Assembly: GCA_011064725.1 (NCBI GenBank)
Contig: JAAKFQ010000002.1
Span: 2,662 to 66,661, forward strand
From: Chlamydiota bacterium
Lineage (GTDB): Bacteria > Chlamydiota > Chlamydiia > Chlamydiales > JAAKFQ01
DNA: 64,000 bases
Direction: 5' to 3'
The translations under genes and the position numbers were made by a program. Positions 41,198-61,116 of the stretch are shown here, piece by piece; the stretch's first letter is position 1; each line of letters starts with the position of its first letter. The notes under the pieces are model-generated. The model was not told the DNA's origin. It did not search any database and worked only from the letters and a program-made list of their open reading frames with translations.

Positions 41198-41740
41198 ATG
41201 TCACTAGAAAATGCGACAGAAAACTTAAAAGAATTTGGAAAAGAACTTGGTTTAGAGGGCTTAGAATTTGATGAAAATAACACCTGTATTTTAGGGATTG
41301 ATGATGCCTTTTCTATGCACCTCACTTATGAACCCAATTCAGATCGACTCTACATTTATTCTCCTATTTTGGATGGTCTTCCCAAAGACAAAGACACACT
41401 TTTGAGGTTGTATGAAAAGCTTTTAGAAGGATCCATGCTAGGCGGACAGATGGCAGGTGGTGGTTGTGGAGTCGCTCCACAAGAAGAACTCATCTTACTT
41501 CACTGTGCTTTAGACATGTCCCATGCACCTCCACAAGCTCTTAGAGCCTTTGCACCTCTTTATGTAGAGACAGTGGAAAAGTGGAGAAAATGTACCACAG
41601 ATCTTGTAGAAGGACGTACTCCTGAGATTGTCTCTCCGTTGGAGCAATACCGTCAGCAACAAGGCGGAGGAGGACCTGTGCAAGCTCCCAAACAAAAAGG
41701 CGAGGGCCAAGGACCTGGTCTTGGTAGTATCCGCGGTTAA
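41198..41740 (+). CDS. class I type III secretion chaperone (CesT/SycE-like; resembles chlamydial Slc1/Mcsc-type chaperones)
   Basis: The pattern LKEFGKELGLEGLEFDENNTCILGIDDAFSMHLTYEPNSDRLYIYSPI...LYEKLLEGSMLGGQMAGGG is characteristic of chlamydial CesT-family chaperones, with a Gly/Gln-rich tail. GGAGAG lies 6 nt before the ATG. Confidence 0.8.
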   Translation: MSLENATENLKEFGKELGLEGLEFDENNTCILGIDDAFSMHLTYEPNSDRLYIYSPILDGLPKDKDTLLRLYEKLLEGSMLGGQMAGGGCGVAPQEELILLHCALDMSHAPPQALRAFAPLYVETVEKWRKCTTDLVEGRTPEIVSPLEQYRQQQGGGGPVQAPKQKGEGQGPGLGSIRG

Positions 41741-41742
41741 AA

Positions 41743-41901
41743 CCGATATTACACATTAAATGTAACTTATGAGAAGGCTGTAGAGAATAATCTATTGCGT
41801 CTTACTCTTTATCCAACTCAAATGAGAGTTGGATTTCATCGTAATACTTGTATCTTATCCTCTTCGCTCTTCCCCTAAGTAGATTTACTGTGTAACATCG
41901 G
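41743..41901. mobile_element. family A 159-bp MITE-like element, copy A2
   Basis: TIRs CCGATATTACACATTAAATGT / AGATTTACTGTGTAACATCGG. Core GAGAAGGCTGTAGAGAATAATCT...CCAACTC..GAGTTGG...CTTGTATCTTATCCTCTTCGCTCTTCCCC. Starts 2 nt after the chaperone stop codon. Flanks are TTAAAA and TTAAGA. Confidence 0.75.
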
Positions 41902-45668: not shown

Positions 45669-45704
45669 TTGCTAGAAAGAATTGAAATACATATACTAAG
45701 CTTA

Positions 45705-45938
45705 TACCAGTAGTAAAAATTAAATGTGTAAATTGGATTCAAGATTTCCAATCGGAATGAAGTCAAGGGGGCTGTGCAAGCAGCCCCATATGAAATCGTA
45801 GCTAACCACTAGGGGACTGCTTAAACAGCCCCTTCAGATGGTTAGCAAGATTGAAAACGAAATTTTACTGACGCCTGAGCGTCAGTTCTGATTGGAAAGA
45901 TGGAGATGAATTTGTACGGTTAATTTTTGCTATTGGTA
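45705..45938 (+). repeat. family B nested-palindrome repeat, copy B4 (long form)
   Basis: Ends TACCAGTAGT ... GCTATTGGTA, flanked by TTA/TTA. Contains all B1 modules plus an extra GGGGGCTGTGCAAGCAGCCCC hairpin. Ends 5 nt before tRNA-Pro. Confidence 0.75.
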
Positions 45939-45943
45939 TTATT

Positions 45944-46018
45944 CGGAGCATAGCGCAGCTTGGCTAGCGCGGCTGCTTTGGGAGCAGTAGGTCGGGGGTT
46001 CAAATCCCTCTGCTCCGA
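45944..46018 (+). tRNA. tRNA-Pro (anticodon UGG)
   Basis: I folded the cloverleaf by hand. The acceptor stem is CGGAGCA/TGCTCCG and the D stem GCGC/GCGC. The anticodon stem GCTGC/GCAGT carries the loop TTTGGGA, and the T arm is GGGGG-TTCAAAT-CCCTC. The discriminator is A and CCA is not encoded. Confidence 0.9.
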
Positions 46019-46088
46019 TCTTTTCTAGAAAGTGTCCCTGTCCTAATAAAAAAGCCGTGTTGAATGAGTGTGGTTTTTTGCTGGGTTG

Positions 46089-56584: not shown

Positions 56585-57286
56585 ATGCGTATCTTAATTT
56601 ATTGTGATGAAGGGGTCGATGCTTTTTCATTTAGGCAAACCTACAAAACGCTAAAAAAAATACTCAAAGCACATTTTGTAGTAGTGAAATCTCATACACT
56701 GCTTGAATATTTAGACAAAGCAGATCTTTTTGTGATGCCAGGTGGACGTGATGTTTTCTATCACAGAGCTCTTCAGGGTAAAAAAACAGATGCCCTTAGG
56801 GAATTTGTAGAAAACGGAGGCAGCTATTTGGGCCTTTGTGCAGGTGCGTATTTTGGATCTAAATCCATTGAGTTTGAAAAAGGACATGTTCATGAAGTGA
56901 TCGAGCAAAGAGAATTGGCCTTTTTTCCAGGCAAAGCTATTGGACCTGCATTGGGTTTGGGAAAATATGAACCGACAAGTTGCAGGGGAGCTGAATGTGC
57001 CCTCATTGATACAAGAATGGGCTCGTTTGGAACGTATTACAATGGAGGGTGCTATTTTGAGGGTTCTTTTTCAAACGCCAAGCCTCTAGCGTATTTTGCT
57101 AAAACAGGAAACGTCGCCATTGTTGAGTGCTCCGTGGGCAAAGGCAAAGCGCTTTTATCTGGCGTGCATCTTGAATATAGCGTAAAAAATCTTACAGAAA
57201 AGCAGCTTGCACACGCTGATATTGAGGTTTTGAAACGAGATGAAGCACTAAGAACTGACTTTACGCACTACCTTCTGTCTATATGA
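56585..57286 (+). CDS. class I glutamine-amidotransferase-like / BPL_N-domain protein
   Basis: MRILIYCDEG..., DLFVMPGGRD and ENGGSYLGLCAGAYF fit the biotin-protein-ligase N-terminal-like (GATase1-fold) domain. The last 11 codons lie inside the left end of MITE copy A3. Confidence 0.6.
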   Translation: MRILIYCDEGVDAFSFRQTYKTLKKILKAHFVVVKSHTLLEYLDKADLFVMPGGRDVFYHRALQGKKTDALREFVENGGSYLGLCAGAYFGSKSIEFEKGHVHEVIEQRELAFFPGKAIGPALGLGKYEPTSCRGAECALIDTRMGSFGTYYNGGCYFEGSFSNAKPLAYFAKTGNVAIVECSVGKGKALLSGVHLEYSVKNLTEKQLAHADIEVLKRDEALRTDFTHYLLSI

Positions 57287-57579
57287 GGGCTGCAAAAAAC
57301 AATCTACGGCGTCTTGCTTCTCATTCAACTTTCATAGAGTTGAATTTCTTAAGCTACCTTGTATCTTGTTCCTTTCGCTCCTCTTATAAACTGATGTTAC
57401 GCGATAAATCCAACTCATAGGAAGGCTGCAGAAGATAATCTGCTTCGTCTTATTCTTCGTCCAACTCTTCAAGAGTTGGACCTCATCACAGTCCTTGCAT
57501 CTTATCCTCTTCGCTCTTCCCCTAAATTGGATTTATCGCGTAACATCAGTTATAAACAGAACTTACTGCGTAACATCAG
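57255..57579. mobile_element. family A MITE-like element, copy A3, interrupted by nested copy A4
   Basis: Left TIR CTGACTTTACGCAC and right TIR GCGTAACATCAG. After removing A4 and one TTATAAA copy, 159 bp remain. Flanking direct repeats are CTAAGAA (57248-57254) and TTAAGAA (57580-57586). Confidence 0.75.
57391..57549. mobile_element. family A 159-bp MITE-like element, copy A4 (nested in A3)
   Basis: TIRs CTGATGTTACGCGATAAATCC / GGATTTATCGCGTAACATCAG. Flanked by a perfect 7-bp direct repeat TTATAAA (57384-57390 and 57550-57556). Confidence 0.8.
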
Positions 57580-57602
57580 TTAAGAATCAGTTTTTAGAAA
57601 GT

Positions 57603-59045
57603 CTATTCTAACTTAGATTTGAGCAAAGTTGTGACAATGGTAGGATCGGCTTTACCTTGCGTTTTTTTCATCACTTGTCCGACTAAAAAGCCAAAGGCGC
57701 GGTCTTTGCCATTTTTAAAATCTTCGATAGATTGGGGATTATCTTCTAGCACCTGATCGACAATCTGAGAAATTTCTTTGGTATCAGCAAGAGGTTTGAA
57801 ATTGGGGTTATTTTCTACAATATGGCGAGGAGAAGTTTTAGGATTTTTTAGCATCTCATCAGCCACTTGCTTGGCAATTTTTCCCGTGATGATCTTTTCA
57901 TCGATCATCTCAACGAGGAGTGCTAAAAATTCGGGCACAATGTCTGTATCTAAAAGCGTTTTTCCACTGGGTTTGAGCCGTCCTGAAAACTCTACCGTAA
58001 TCCAGTTAGCAACTGCCTGAGGGTTTTTGTCATAGCTATTAAGCGCTTGTTCAAAATAATTAGAAAGTTGTTTATTAGAAACCAAAATGGTGGCTGATTC
58101 TTCTGGAATAAAGGTTAAGTAACGTTTGAAGCGAGAGTGGGGGAGTTCGGGAAGATTGTTGAAAATTTCTTGAATGTATTCATCAGAAAGGACAATAGGA
58201 ACAAGGTCGGGCTCAGGGAAAAAGCGATAGTCTGCGGCCGTCTCTTTTTTTCGCATCAGCACATTTTTATGCACTGCGGTGTCAAATCTGTAAGTGCAGG
58301 GAAAAATCACTTCCTCGGGATCTTTTTGAGGATATTTTTCATACAGCTCAATTTGACGATCGATTTCCATTTGAATCGCTTTTTGCAAGAAATTAAACGA
58401 ATTGACGTTTTTGATTTCGACTTTGGTACGCAATCCTTTTTCTTCTTTTTTCTTCACGGAGACATTGCAATCAACTCTCAAAGAGCCTTCATCCATATTG
58501 CAGTCCGAAGCATCGATGTATTGCATGATGTGTTTGACTTGCAAAGCAAAAGCGGCTGCTTCTTGTGGACTGTGCATACAAGGCTCTGAGACAATTTCGA
58601 TAAGAGGCGTACCTGCACGGTTATAATCCACACCAGAGAAGTTGGAAAAATGCTTGAGCATGCCTGTGTCTTCTTCCAGATGGGCGTGGTTGATTTCAAA
58701 GGTTTTTTCTTCTCCGTTTACAAATGCATGAACTTTTCCGCCTAGAATCAGAGGCATGTCATATTGCGTGATTTGGAAGTTTTTGGGAAGGTCGGGATAA
58801 AAGTAGGATTTTCGATCGAATTTGCAAAAAGGAGCGATATTGGCTTCAATAGCAAGGCCAAACTGTACACCTTTTTTGACCACCTCTTCATTCAATACAG
58901 GCAGGGTGCCTGGTTGCCCTGTGCAAAGATAAGAAATATTGACATTGGGTTCATCTCCAAACCGGTTAAAGGAAGGATCAAAAATTTTGGCTTTTGTGTT
59001 GAGCTGCACATGGATTTCGAGGCCAATGACACAGATCCAGTCCAT
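57603..59045 (-). CDS. gatB: Asp/Glu-tRNA(Asn/Gln) amidotransferase subunit B
   Basis: Full-length GatB pattern (VIGLEIHVQL, HLEEDTGM, C-terminal YqeY-like domain). Position in gatCAB order. Confidence 0.95.
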   Translation of the reverse strand: MDWICVIGLEIHVQLNTKAKIFDPSFNRFGDEPNVNISYLCTGQPGTLPVLNEEVVKKGVQFGLAIEANIAPFCKFDRKSYFYPDLPKNFQITQYDMPLILGGKVHAFVNGEEKTFEINHAHLEEDTGMLKHFSNFSGVDYNRAGTPLIEIVSEPCMHSPQEAAAFALQVKHIMQYIDASDCNMDEGSLRVDCNVSVKKKEEKGLRTKVEIKNVNSFNFLQKAIQMEIDRQIELYEKYPQKDPEEVIFPCTYRFDTAVHKNVLMRKKETAADYRFFPEPDLVPIVLSDEYIQEIFNNLPELPHSRFKRYLTFIPEESATILVSNKQLSNYFEQALNSYDKNPQAVANWITVEFSGRLKPSGKTLLDTDIVPEFLALLVEMIDEKIITGKIAKQVADEMLKNPKTSPRHIVENNPNFKPLADTKEISQIVDQVLEDNPQSIEDFKNGKDRAFGFLVGQVMKKTQGKADPTIVTTLLKSKLE

Positions 59046-60813: not shown

Positions 60814-60927
60814 GAAAATAATACAACTGAGAGAAAAAAGCAACAAAAGCTCAATGTGTTAGGATTTTTTTGAAAAAAAGATGACAAAACCTTATATTTG
60901 CGGTATGCAGAGGGTAATACAATAGAA

Positions 60928-61092
60928 ACCTGAGTTTTGAGTTTAGTTTGCTCATTATTATGATGGATGTCTCTTAAATTCTCGGGGTTTTTTGATGTAG
61001 GGAATGGTTAAAGAACTATTTCCAAGGCAAAAAACACAGAGAAGAAAGAGTCATCTACTTAAGAATGTGTGAAATAAACTTAAAATTCAGGT
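60928..61092. repeat. family C inverted-repeat element, copy C2
   Basis: TIRs ACCTGAGTTTTGAGTTTAGTTTG / TGAAATAAACTTAAAATTCAGGT. Shares the TIR core and GAAGAAAGAGT with C1. Confidence 0.55.
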
Positions 61093-61116
61093 TAAAACAA
61101 AAAAAGGAGTTTCGAG

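What the first reader, a model, noticed from the sequence alone, without database searches (positions are those of the whole stretch)
57248..57586. Nested MITE-in-MITE insertion with a perfect 7-bp target-site duplication
Copy A4 (57391-57549) sits inside copy A3 and is flanked by the perfect direct repeat TTATAAA (57384-57390 and 57550-57556). Removing A4 and one repeat restores a 159-bp A3 with both TIRs. A3 is itself flanked by CTAAGAA and TTAAGAA. This is direct structural evidence that family A moved by transposition with a ~7-bp duplication, fairly recently given the perfect TSD, rather than being a static regulatory palindrome.
Basis: seen in the sequence. Interest (0 to 1): 0.6.

Follow-up and report, generated by a model that had tools for sequence, protein, structure and literature searches.

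The report
Mobile hairpin repeat nested in another
A 159-161 bp hairpin-forming mobile DNA repeat of an uncultured marine-sediment chlamydia has inserted into an older copy of itself and duplicated a few target bases, which shows that the repeat family spread by transposition; it is an undescribed family of a well-known kind of element (a bacterial MITE).

Summary
A complete 159-bp copy (A4, 57391-57549) interrupts another copy (A3). It is flanked by TTATAAA on both sides. Removing A4 and one repeat restores a colinear 159-bp A3, which is itself flanked by CTAAGAA/TTAAGAA. An independent assembly shows the same right junction.

The window comes from the MAG 'Chlamydiae bacterium K940chlam8'. 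I collected 58-63 full-length copies from this scaffold, two other chlamydial MAGs and sediment metagenomes. Flanking direct repeats in the 7-bp register are strongly enriched: 22 of 58 copies are near-perfect, against 3.4 expected by permutation. Transposition with a target-site duplication into AT-rich T(T)WWW(A)A sites is therefore supported.

Refinements:
- Only the inner 5 bp carry a duplication signal. The bases abutting the element are almost invariant (A 95%, T 98%), so the duplication may be 5 bp (TATAA for A4, a perfect TAAGA for A3) next to a 161-bp element.
- "Recent" is not supported. The nearest relative of A4 is 93% identical.
- Two of the five copies on this scaffold have no duplication.

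Unexpectedly, the whole element is a rod hairpin with extensive compensatory changes, a nearly invariant length, and a strand asymmetry: the reverse strand folds better in 59 of 59 copies. Something beyond selfish decay maintains it. No cognate transposase was found. Verdict: a new member of a known kind.

The parts
57248..57254 (.). Left flanking repeat of outer copy A3: CTAAGAA. The 5-bp core TAAGA is at 57249-57253 and the A at 57254 may be the first base of the element.
   Evidence: sequence; register analysis.
57255..57390 (+). Outer copy A3, left 136 bp (family positions 1-136). It ends in its own TTATAAA, which was the target of A4.
   Evidence: nhmmer model positions 1-139 at 57255-57393; covariance model positions 24-136 at 57278-57390.
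57384..57390 (.). Left copy of the repeat flanking A4: TTATAAA (core TATAA at 57385-57389). It corresponds to the family consensus CTCTAAA/CTATAAA, so it is A3's own sequence.
   Evidence: The L017 copy reads CCTATAAACAG at the same position.
57391..57549 (+). Inner copy A4, complete at 159 bp (161 bp, 57390-57550, if the flanking A/T pair is counted). It has a perfect 23-bp terminal inverted repeat and forms a rod hairpin with the apical stem-loop CCAACTCTTCAAGAGTTGG.
   Evidence: I1; E=1.7e-47; 178.6 bits; fold z-scores -11.5 to -14.6.
57550..57556 (.). Right copy of the repeat flanking A4: TTATAAA (core TATAA at 57551-57555). This is the duplicated copy.
   Evidence: (a 7/7 match occurs in 0.7% of permuted flank pairs).
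57557..57579 (+). Outer copy A3, right 23 bp (right terminal inverted repeat CAGAACTTACTGCGTAACATCAG).
   Evidence: (I3, D1; model positions 131-159 at 57551-57579).
57580..57586 (.). Right flanking repeat of A3: TTAAGAA (core TAAGA at 57581-57585).
14337..14495 (+). Family copy A1, 159 bp. It has no convincing duplication (TTTGTTA | TTAATCA) and lies upstream of a minus-strand fabI-like ORF.
41743..41901 (+). Family copy A2, 159 bp, flanked by TTAAAA | TTAAGA. It starts 3 nt after the stop codon of ORF 41198-41740.
56585..57286 (+). BPL_N-domain gene whose last codons were replaced by A3. The present tail TDFTHYLLSI and the stop codon are encoded by the element. Removing A3, A4 and one TAAGA restores ...ALRISF-stop.
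   Evidence: ORF; Pfam PF09825; alignment with homologues; the last conserved residue is R223, immediately before the element.

Best explanation
Family A is a non-autonomous DNA transposon (a bacterial MITE) of uncultured marine-sediment Chlamydiae.

The element:
- It is 159 bp, or 161 bp counting an almost invariant flanking A...T pair.
- Its termini read (A)CTGAYNTTACGC...GCGTAANRTCAG(T).
- It encodes nothing.
- It folds end to end into a rod-like hairpin capped by a nearly invariant CCAACTC...GAGTTGG stem-loop.

Inferred mechanism: a transposase supplied in trans binds the two ends, makes staggered cuts 5 bp apart (7 bp on the maximal reading, occasionally one more) in an AT-rich target of the form T-[TWWWA]-A, and gap repair duplicates the target.

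Inferred history of this site:
1. A3 inserted into the last three codons of the BPL_N gene, next to the convergent gatB. It duplicated TAAGA and supplied a new ten-codon tail and stop codon.
2. Later, A4 inserted into the 3' arm of A3 at T-TATAA-A and duplicated TATAA.

Shown:
- the nested anatomy;
- the family-wide flanking duplications;
- the target preference;
- paralogous empty sites;
- presence of the family in at least three chlamydial MAG lineages.

Inferred: the enzyme type (not found) and the exact stagger.

Second layer, moderately supported: the hairpin is actively maintained on one strand. Compensatory substitutions run along the whole stem. The tolerated intermediates are those that give G-U (G-T) pairs on the strand opposite to the orientation used here. 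Length stays at 159 +/- 2 bp even in copies whose duplications have decayed. The most likely reason is selection on a single-stranded form, probably RNA read through from neighbouring genes, because the copies hug gene 3' ends.
For: Anatomy.

Independent assembly of one junction.

Source and relatives:
- The window is from ENA scaffold_209, NCBI MAG K940chlam8.
- The family also occurs in MAGs SZUA-160 and KR126_chlam_2 and in 43 metagenome contigs with prefixes SDBV01, SDBU01 and SDBS01.

Duplication statistics on 58 distinct copies:
- In the 7-bp register, 29% of copies match at >=6/7, against 4.6% of permuted pairs.
- 22 copies are near-perfect, against a permuted mean of 3.4 and a maximum of 13 in 5000 permutations.
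- The inner five bases are perfect in 9 copies and 4/5 in 14, against null rates of 0.9% and 7.5%.

Target preference: left flank T T W W T A A, right flank T T W W W A A.

Empty sites:
- The joined flanks of A4 align colinearly with more than 30 intact copies.
- The L020 copy lies inside a member of another repeat family, whose uninterrupted paralogues span the site.

No coding capacity.

Hairpin:
- 56 pairs, 25 of them with double compensatory changes among only 5 copies, against 10.8 +/- 2.3 in shuffles (0/500) and 1-8 in slid controls.
- In 63 copies: 2918 Watson-Crick cells, 309 A.C and 53 G.U.
- The reverse-strand RNA is more stable in 59/59 copies, mean -72.8 against -53.1 kcal/mol.
- Stem quality and length are the same in copies with and without a preserved duplication.

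Gene effect.
Against: - No autonomous element or transposase with these termini was found in about 0.5 Mb of related sequence, so mobilisation in trans is assumed.
- About 35-40% of copies, including A0 and A1 on this scaffold, show no flanking repeat in any register.
- The duplication length is not fixed: mostly the 5/7-bp register, about five copies in a 6/8-bp register, and a few that look like 4 bp.
- No orthologous empty site could be obtained, because the nearest relative of a neighbouring gene is only 50% identical.
- No pair of copies is more than 94% identical, so there is no sign of current activity.
- For the second layer, compensatory change could arise without host-level selection. 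It could come from selection for transposition competence in active lineages, or from arm-to-arm template switching in quasi-palindromes.
- There are no expression data.
Confidence: 0.85

Rival explanations
1. The arrangement is not an insertion. It is a local rearrangement: a truncated copy (A3 left) abutting a full copy (A4), followed by a 30-bp tandem duplication of the A4 right end.
For: the repeat finder D1 shows 57523-57552 and 57553-57582 as 30-nt direct repeats, 80% identical, with spacing 30.
Against: - The 23-bp piece after A4 pairs with the A3 left terminus better than with A4 (18/23 against 14/23, TTCTG shared only with A3).
- A3 left plus A3 right is exactly the family length of 159 bp and colinear with all other copies.
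- The break point is flanked by a perfect direct repeat, as at other insertions of the family.
Confidence: 0.03
2. Metagenome misassembly: two different copies of the repeat were chimerically joined.
For: The source is a metagenome scaffold, and repeats are a classic cause of chimeras. The Logan contig L002 ends inside A4.
Against: - Two assemblies, ENA scaffold_209 and Logan SRR8451930, agree on the right junction.
- A chimeric join would not create a 7-bp direct repeat at both borders.
- It would not leave two halves that sum to exactly one element, with unique genes (BPL_N, gatB) on both sides.
Confidence: 0.02
3. The elements move as single-stranded DNA hairpins of one specific strand, by an HUH/Y1-type or integrase-type enzyme as for IS200/IS605 derivatives or integron attC sites. 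The flanking repeats would then reflect target specificity rather than staggered cutting.
For: - There is a strong, universal strand asymmetry of the hairpin.
- The bases abutting both ends are nearly invariant.
- GTTAC/GTAAC motifs occur in the termini.
- All five copies on this scaffold share one orientation.
Against: - The flanking repeats vary in sequence and match within copies far more than between copies. That is duplication, not a fixed target word.
- Orientation relative to local GC skew is random, 30:28, unlike ssDNA transposons.
- Insertions lie among housekeeping genes in both orientations, not in unidirectional cassette arrays.
- The GTT/AAC order is the reverse of attC R''/R'.
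Confidence: 0.05
4. The family is primarily a host-functional structured RNA or regulatory palindrome, for example a 3'-end hairpin acting as terminator or mRNA stabiliser. Its spread by transposition would be ancient and incidental, and the copies would now be kept by selection.
For: - Covariation runs along the full stem.
- Length is invariant at 69% median identity.
- Stems are equally intact where duplications have decayed.
- Copies sit within about 0-50 nt of stop codons, often filling the whole gap between convergent genes.
- The apical stem-loop is almost invariant.
Against: - No consistent promoter or terminator signature was found.
- Nothing reached the gathering score of any Rfam family. 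The only hit is a generic hairpin match well below threshold.
- In co-directional gene pairs the weaker-folding strand is the one more often in sense (++ 20 against -- 8, from crude ORF calls).
- Copies are themselves disrupted by other mobile repeats.
- A3 tolerates a 166-bp interruption.
- This does not contradict mobility. It is a layer on top of the best explanation.
Confidence: 0.3

Closest known systems
Bacterial MITEs that fold into long hairpins: Correia/NEMIS elements of Neisseria, ERIC/IRU of enterobacteria, RUP of Streptococcus pneumoniae (recalled from general knowledge, not tested by sequence here)
   Same: - 100-160 bp, non-coding, with terminal inverted repeats.
- Dispersed, mostly intergenic copies close to gene ends.
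- Short target duplications.
- The whole element can fold as a hairpin in transcripts, with orientation-dependent stability because of G-U pairs.
- No transposase of their own.
   Different: - The sequence looked unrelated to any of these. No reference sequences were available to align against, and nothing reached an Rfam gathering score.
- The duplication is 5-7 bp in an AT-rich T..A site rather than TA.
- The host is an uncultured chlamydial lineage.
- The strand asymmetry is unusually uniform (59/59 copies).
bcr1 repeat of the Bacillus cereus group (about 155 bp, reported with a TTTAT 5-bp duplication and stable RNA structure; recalled from memory, not checked in the paper library)
   Same: Size class, a 5-bp AT-rich duplication, a predicted stable hairpin, and location in or near transcribed intergenic regions.
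   Different: - The termini read here (CTGAYNTTACGC) did not recall bcr1, though no bcr1 sequence was available to compare.
- The phylum differs.
- bcr1 has a fixed target word, whereas this family has variable T(T)WWW(A)A targets.
Rickettsia palindromic elements (RPE)
   Same: Palindromic repeats of about 100-150 bp, with compensatory stem changes, in an obligate intracellular lineage.
   Different: RPEs are known for in-frame insertion into genes. Here none of 63 copies lies inside a long ORF, and all six frames carry stop codons in most copies. A3 only clips the last three codons of a gene.
IS4-family insertion sequences (IS10/IS50-type termini beginning CTGA; the ISPepr1 subgroup is listed with 7-8 bp duplications; recalled from ISfinder summaries)
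   Same: The termini start with CTGA, and the maximal reading of the flanking repeats is 7 bp, with a minority at 8 bp.
   Different: No transposase was found, so this is only a lead. The 5/6-bp reading would not fit this subgroup.
Nested MITE insertions used as evidence of mobility in plant genomes (for example maize and rice Tourist/Stowaway analyses; general knowledge)
   Same: The logic is the same: an element inside a related element, with a duplication and 'related empty sites' in uninterrupted paralogues.
   Different: The host here is prokaryotic. In these chlamydial contigs at least five unrelated MITE-like families insert into one another.

Membership tests
MITE (non-autonomous class II element) | Small size (below about 300 bp) and no coding capacity | tested here: met
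   159-161 bp. Stop codons occur in all six frames in most of 59 copies, with at most 7 copies open in any frame.
MITE (non-autonomous class II element) | Terminal inverted repeats | tested here: met
   A4 has 23/23 complementary termini, and its arms of 55 nt are 80% complementary. The termini are conserved as CTGAYNTTACGC in most copies.
MITE (non-autonomous class II element) | Target-site duplication of characteristic length flanking copies | tested here: met
   22/58 copies are near-perfect in the 7/8-bp register, against a permuted mean of 3.4. The inner 5 bp are perfect in 9 copies and 4/5 in 14, against null rates of 0.9% and 7.5%. Whether the length is 5 or 7 bp is unresolved.
MITE (non-autonomous class II element) | Many dispersed copies | tested here: met
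   There are 5 copies in about 82 kb of this scaffold and 63 full-length copies in 0.46 Mb of related contigs.
MITE (non-autonomous class II element) | Empty sites (presence/absence of the insertion) | tested here: inconclusive
   Paralogous empty sites were found for A4 in A3 and for the L020 copy in family E. No orthologous empty site could be sought, because no close relative exists in the collections (next homologue 50% identical; exact GatB only in the same sample).
MITE (non-autonomous class II element) | A cognate autonomous IS sharing the termini | tested here: inconclusive
   Orphan termini in all loci belong to interrupted or truncated copies only. No multi-copy long ORF occurs among 372 ORFs of the loci. 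IS elements are usually lost from MAG assemblies.
Rickettsia palindromic element (RPE)-like | In-frame insertion within protein-coding genes, with an open frame through the element | tested here: not met
   0 of 63 copies lie inside a long ORF, and there is no conserved open frame.
IS200/IS605-derived palindromic elements (ssDNA transposition) | No duplication, and insertion next to a fixed 4-5 nt word on one side | tested here: not met
   The flanking repeats vary between copies but match within copies.
IS200/IS605-derived palindromic elements (ssDNA transposition) | Orientation bias relative to the replication strand | tested here: not met
   Element orientation against local GC skew is 30 positive and 28 negative.
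Integron attC site | R''(RYYYAAC)...R'(GTTRRRY) core sites in that order, in unidirectional cassette arrays with intI | tested here: not met
   The termini read 5'-..GTTACGC ... GCGTAAC..-3', which is the opposite order. The neighbours are housekeeping genes in all orientations (gatCAB, BPL_N, xerD-like, fabI-like). The xerD-like gene (Phage_integrase Pfam domains) was not examined as a possible IntI.
REP/BIME | 20-40 bp palindromic units with GTAG/CGTC heads, associated with RAYT | tested here: not met
   The unit is 159 bp with CTGA heads. No RAYT was looked for.
ERIC / Correia families | Sequence homology to the family consensus, and a TA duplication | tested here: not met
   The duplication is 5-7 bp rather than TA. 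Homology to the family consensus was not tested, because no reference sequence was available. Nothing reached an Rfam gathering score.
IS4 family (as source of the termini) | A DDE transposase with the YREK motif bounded by the same termini | not testable with these tools
   No transposase candidate was recovered. The CTGA start and the 7-8 bp reading are only a resemblance recalled from memory.

The most novel reading that the evidence does not exclude
Family A may be more than decaying selfish DNA. It may be a mobile structured element whose hairpin is kept by selection on one specific strand. That could be an RNA module delivered to gene 3' ends (a stabiliser, terminator or processing site). 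Alternatively, the transposition substrate may have to fold as a strand-specific single-stranded hairpin while insertion still produces a target duplication, a combination not known for any bacterial transposon family.
Probability: 0.3. Interest if true: 0.6.

Novelty: new member of a known kind. Interest (0 to 1): 0.4.

Why it matters
- It establishes that the short palindromic repeats that litter these uncultured marine-sediment chlamydial genomes are transposition products, not static signals. I found no description of them in the searched literature.
- It gives the family a defined anatomy, a target preference (AT-rich, often the TAA stop region of genes) and a covariance model.
- This matters for MAG assembly and annotation. 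Contigs break at these repeats and gene 3' ends are rewritten, as in the BPL_N gene here.
- It bears on how mobile DNA persists in lineages usually described as having streamlined genomes.
- The uniform strand asymmetry and the compensatory evolution make the family a good test case for whether bacterial MITE hairpins are maintained by RNA-level selection.

Tried and rejected
1. A stringent element pattern (ATCCYYTTCGCYCTTCCYCTAA) found nothing in genome contigs or metagenome contigs. A pattern built only from invariant columns then found 4 and 43 loci.
2. Orthologous empty site. The exact GatB protein occurs only in the same sample, and the closest BPL_N homologue is 50% identical. This line was abandoned.
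3. L046 against L024 looked like an empty site in BLAST, but only the left flank is homologous. Rejected.
4. RPE-like in-frame element. Frame +1 looked nearly open in the four window copies, but not across 59 copies. Rejected.
5. Replication-strand orientation bias, suggested by 5/5 copies on this scaffold sharing one orientation. Rejected at 30:28.
6. Promoter and terminator scans of three copies gave nothing consistent.
7. Rfam at a permissive threshold gave only a generic hairpin match to a plant miRNA precursor, 35 bits against a 95-bit gathering score.
8. BLAST of A4 against plasmids gave no match.
9. RNAalifold on a plain MAFFT alignment of 59 copies lost the stem because of indel misalignment. 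I replaced it with a covariance-model alignment.
10. Separating a 5-bp from a 7-bp duplication. The leave-one-out match rate of the inner positions (76%) equals that of the outer positions in well-preserved copies (76%), so this test has no power. The proximal/distal asymmetry and the 8-bp-register cases favour 5/6 bp but do not prove it.
11. Three attempts to fetch gene annotations with the look-up of encoding contigs failed because the ORF starts did not match the called genes: the window-start ORF and two ORFs in the middle of the window.
12. Literature searches for chlamydial MITEs returned nothing relevant.
Full report
**What is at the coordinates**

Reading 57000-57900 gives, in order:
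- CTAAGAA (57248-57254);
- 136 bp of a repeat, A3 left (57255-57390), ending in TTATAAA;
- a complete 159-bp repeat, A4 (57391-57549), whose ends are a perfect 23-bp inverted repeat (CTGATGTTACGCGATAAATCCAA ... TTGGATTTATCGCGTAACATCAG);
- TTATAAA again (57550-57556);
- 23 bp, A3 right (57557-57579);
- TTAAGAA (57580-57586).

The repeat finder recovers the inner arms (55 nt, 80% complementary) and the outer arms. Two further copies lie in the window, A1 at 14337-14495 and A2 at 41743-41901. A3 with A4 and one TTATAAA removed is exactly 159 bp, like A1, A2 and A4, and aligns with them end to end. The A3 right terminus matches the A3 left terminus (18/23) better than it matches the A4 terminus (14/23). 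The 30-nt direct repeat reported as D1 is therefore the right end of the interrupted outer copy, not a local duplication.

**Source, and whether it could be an artefact**

The exact GatB protein encoded next to the element is on ENA scaffold BAEC19-1_SAMN10402039_METAG-scaffold_209 (128,044 bp; the window is its reverse complement). It is also on an independent Logan contig from run SRR8451930. The Logan contig shows the same junction of A3 right end, TTTATAA and A4 start before it breaks inside A4. The neighbouring BPL_N protein is named 'K940chlam8_00128 [Chlamydiae bacterium]' at NCBI, and its next relative is only 50% identical. K940_chlam_8 is used as the name of a family-level, sediment-enriched chlamydial lineage in PMC8242063. 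A chimeric assembly would not leave two halves that sum to one element, nor a direct repeat at both borders.

**Collecting the family**

- A fifth copy, A0, lies just outside the window start (L004 12988-13150).
- A stringent 22-mer pattern found nothing in the public collections.
- A pattern made only of invariant columns matched all four window copies.
- That pattern found four loci in two other chlamydial MAGs, SZUA-160 and KR126_chlam_2.
- It also found 43 metagenome contigs with prefixes SDBV01, SDBU01 and SDBS01. Three SDBU01 contigs have the same lengths as KR126_chlam_2 contigs.
- nhmmer and a covariance model (R1) then gave 58-63 distinct full-length copies in about 0.46 Mb.
- Almost all are 157-161 bp. 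Median pairwise identity is 69% and the maximum is 94%. The closest relative of A4 is 93% identical (L040).

**Is there a consistent target-site duplication?**

Yes. I compared the k bases left of each copy with the k bases to its right, using re-paired flanks as the null. Only the 7-bp register stands out.
- 29% of copies match at >=6/7, against 4.6% of permuted pairs.
- 22 of 58 copies are near-perfect (>=6/7 or >=7/8), against a permuted mean of 3.4 and a maximum of 13 in 5000 permutations.
- Perfect examples come from different organisms: L006 TTTTGAA, L035 TTTGTAA, L020 TTCTTAA, L044 TAATTTA.
- The repeats differ between copies, so they are not part of the element.
- They share a composition, T T W W T A A on the left and T T W W W A A on the right, which indicates an AT-rich, roughly palindromic target.

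**How long is the duplication?**

Per-position analysis shows that only the inner five positions match more than the null:

| Position in the 7-bp register | Observed match | Null match |
|---|---|---|
| inner 1 | 0.59 | 0.49 |
| inner 2 | 0.47 | 0.34 |
| inner 3 | 0.53 | 0.33 |
| inner 4 | 0.59 | 0.38 |
| inner 5 | 0.66 | 0.47 |
| outer, left | 0.67 | 0.68 |
| outer, right | 0.71 | 0.71 |

Further points:
- The base touching the left end is A in 55/58 copies and the base touching the right end is T in 57/58. Their supposed duplicates are T in 40/58 and A in 43/58.
- L049 has G...C at these positions with a perfect inner ATATA.
- In the five copies with an 8-bp register, three of the four single mismatches fall on the outermost left base.

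This favours a 161-bp element (A-CTGA...TCAG-T) with a 5-bp duplication, or 6 bp in a minority. On that reading A4 duplicated TATAA and A3 has a perfect TAAGA.

The alternative is not excluded. A strict T-NNNNN-A target could be duplicated as 7 bp, with the proximal bases later protected because they extend the stem. In well-preserved copies the outer positions match at 76%, the same as the leave-one-out rate of the inner positions. I therefore report the duplication as '5 bp certain, 7 bp maximal'.

A0 and A1 show no duplication (2/5), and about a third of all copies do not either.

**Empty sites**

No orthologous empty site is obtainable, because no close relative exists. Paralogous ones are available.
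- The two flanks of A4 joined together align across the junction with more than 30 intact copies.
- The L020 copy, flanked by TTCTTAA on both sides, lies inside a member of a different repeat family (termini AACCTGAGTTT). Its uninterrupted paralogues, including window 60927-61094, span the site.
- Other family-A copies are interrupted by at least three or four further MITE-like families (L008, L011, L014, L017, L023).

Nesting is therefore common in these genomes.

**Effect on neighbours**

A3 sits in the last codons of the BPL_N gene (56585-57286). The last conserved residue, R223, immediately precedes the element. The present tail TDFTHYLLSI and the stop codon are element-encoded. Deleting A3, A4 and one TAAGA restores ...ALRISF-stop, only a few bases from the stop of the convergent gatB.

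Across 63 copies, with crude ORF calling, the elements lie mostly within -30 to +50 nt of gene ends and often fill the gap between convergent genes. The contexts are ++ 20, +- 18, -+ 14 and -- 8. AT-rich targets that include TAA stop codons, together with purifying selection elsewhere, would explain this.

**The hairpin**

- A4 folds as one rod. As DNA it gives -40.8 kcal/mol (z = -11.5); as RNA -70.1 (z = -12.7).
- With only five copies, 25 of 56 predicted pairs show double compensatory changes, against 10.8 +/- 2.3 in column shuffles (0/500) and 1-8 in slid controls. 90% of cells are paired.
- In 63 copies aligned to R1 there are 2918 Watson-Crick cells, 309 A.C, 53 G.U and 221 other.
- The A.C excess is spread over most columns and is polymorphic. 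For example, one pair reads TA 23 / CA 21 / CG 15 / TG 1.
- On the opposite strand these A.C cells are G-U wobble intermediates. Accordingly the reverse strand folds better as RNA in 59 of 59 copies, mean -72.8 against -53.1 kcal/mol. For A4 the values are -88.2 against -71.8 kcal/mol for the same 161 nt on the forward strand.
- Orientation relative to local GC skew is random, 30:28. A replication-linked mutation bias, or an ssDNA-transposon-like strand preference, therefore cannot explain the asymmetry. The shared orientation of the five copies on this scaffold is a local coincidence.
- Copies whose flanking repeats have decayed have stems as good as those with intact repeats (47.4 against 45.9 Watson-Crick pairs of 56) and the same length.

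Together this points to maintenance of a single-stranded fold in one sense, most simply an RNA. Selection for transposition competence in active lineages, or arm-to-arm template switching, could contribute. No promoter or terminator signature is shared. Nothing reaches an Rfam gathering score.

**What it is not**

- It is not RPE-like. No copy lies inside a gene and there is no open frame.
- It is not an IS200/IS605-type element. Duplications are present and there is no strand bias.
- It is not an attC site. The order of the core motifs is wrong and the context is housekeeping genes.
- It is not REP/BIME, on size.
- No transposase partner was found. Orphan termini all belong to broken copies, and no multi-copy long ORF occurs among 372 ORFs.
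- The CTGA termini and a 7-8 bp reading recall IS4-family elements. A 5-bp AT-rich duplication recalls bcr1 of Bacillus. Both are resemblances from memory, not tests.

**Verdict**

It overstates three details:
- the duplication may be 5 bp rather than 7;
- recency is not supported;
- 'mobile' and 'structured palindrome' are not alternatives.

This is a previously undescribed family of a known kind of element, in a poorly known bacterial lineage. Its hairpin is conserved with an unusually clean strand asymmetry, which deserves follow-up.

Noticed in passing
window 14744-14940, 20475-20659, 38215-38280, 45704-45939: A second MITE-like family ('B'), with termini ATACCARTARTAAAATTAAATG and 185-236 bp long. 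The copy at 45704-45939 ends 4 nt before tRNA-Pro (45943-46020). A related element interrupts a family-A copy in L014:1700-1850.
   Followed up: partly
window 60927-61094: A third MITE-like family ('E'), about 168 bp, with termini AACCTGAGTTT...AAATTCAGGTT. It has paralogues in L010, L012, L016, L019, L027, L046 and L048. In L020 one of them carries a family-A insertion flanked by TTCTTAA.
   Followed up: partly
L008:590-900, L011:2738-3048, L017:8154-8479, L023:3327-3596: Family-A copies are interrupted by further unrelated palindromic elements, with termini AAAGTTACAAA, GGGACTGTTGCAA and GAAAC(C/T)(T/C)CTGCATAAT. At least five MITE-like families nest in one another in these chlamydial contigs.
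   Followed up: partly
L004:13150-13200 (just left of window position 1): The left end of copy A0 lies 15 nt upstream of the ATG of a MatE transporter gene, with the AAGGA ribosome-binding site right at the element border. Transcription of that gene must start in, or pass through, the element.
   Followed up: no
L039:843-865 and L041:9480-9502: There are 23-bp 'mini' derivatives consisting of little more than a family-A terminus (CTGATGTTACGCAGTAACTTCAG; CTGACATTACGCAGTAAATTCTG). They are flanked by TTATAA/TTATTAA-like and TTTTAA repeats. They may be internal-deletion products or excision remnants.
   Followed up: no
L012:6039-6364 and L019:8891-9130: Two full copies lie in tandem, separated by only TTAAATAA. 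Elsewhere a full copy is followed by a second right half (81 nt, about 85% identical). These arrangements suggest adjacent insertions or recombination between copies.
   Followed up: no
window 51922-53039 versus 53668-54780: A block is repeated with a period of about 1741-1746 bp at 73-79% identity (families D4-D6). It looks like a tandem pair of diverged paralogous genes together with their upstream regions.
   Followed up: no
window 14337-57579 and L004:12988-13150: All five family-A copies on this scaffold have the same orientation. Across 58 copies, orientation is random with respect to GC skew (30:28), so this appears to be a local coincidence.
   Followed up: yes
window 29581-29677 (-) and 45943-46020 (+): The bacterial small SRP RNA and tRNA-Pro(UGG) are the only Rfam or ARAGORN hits in the window.
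   Followed up: no
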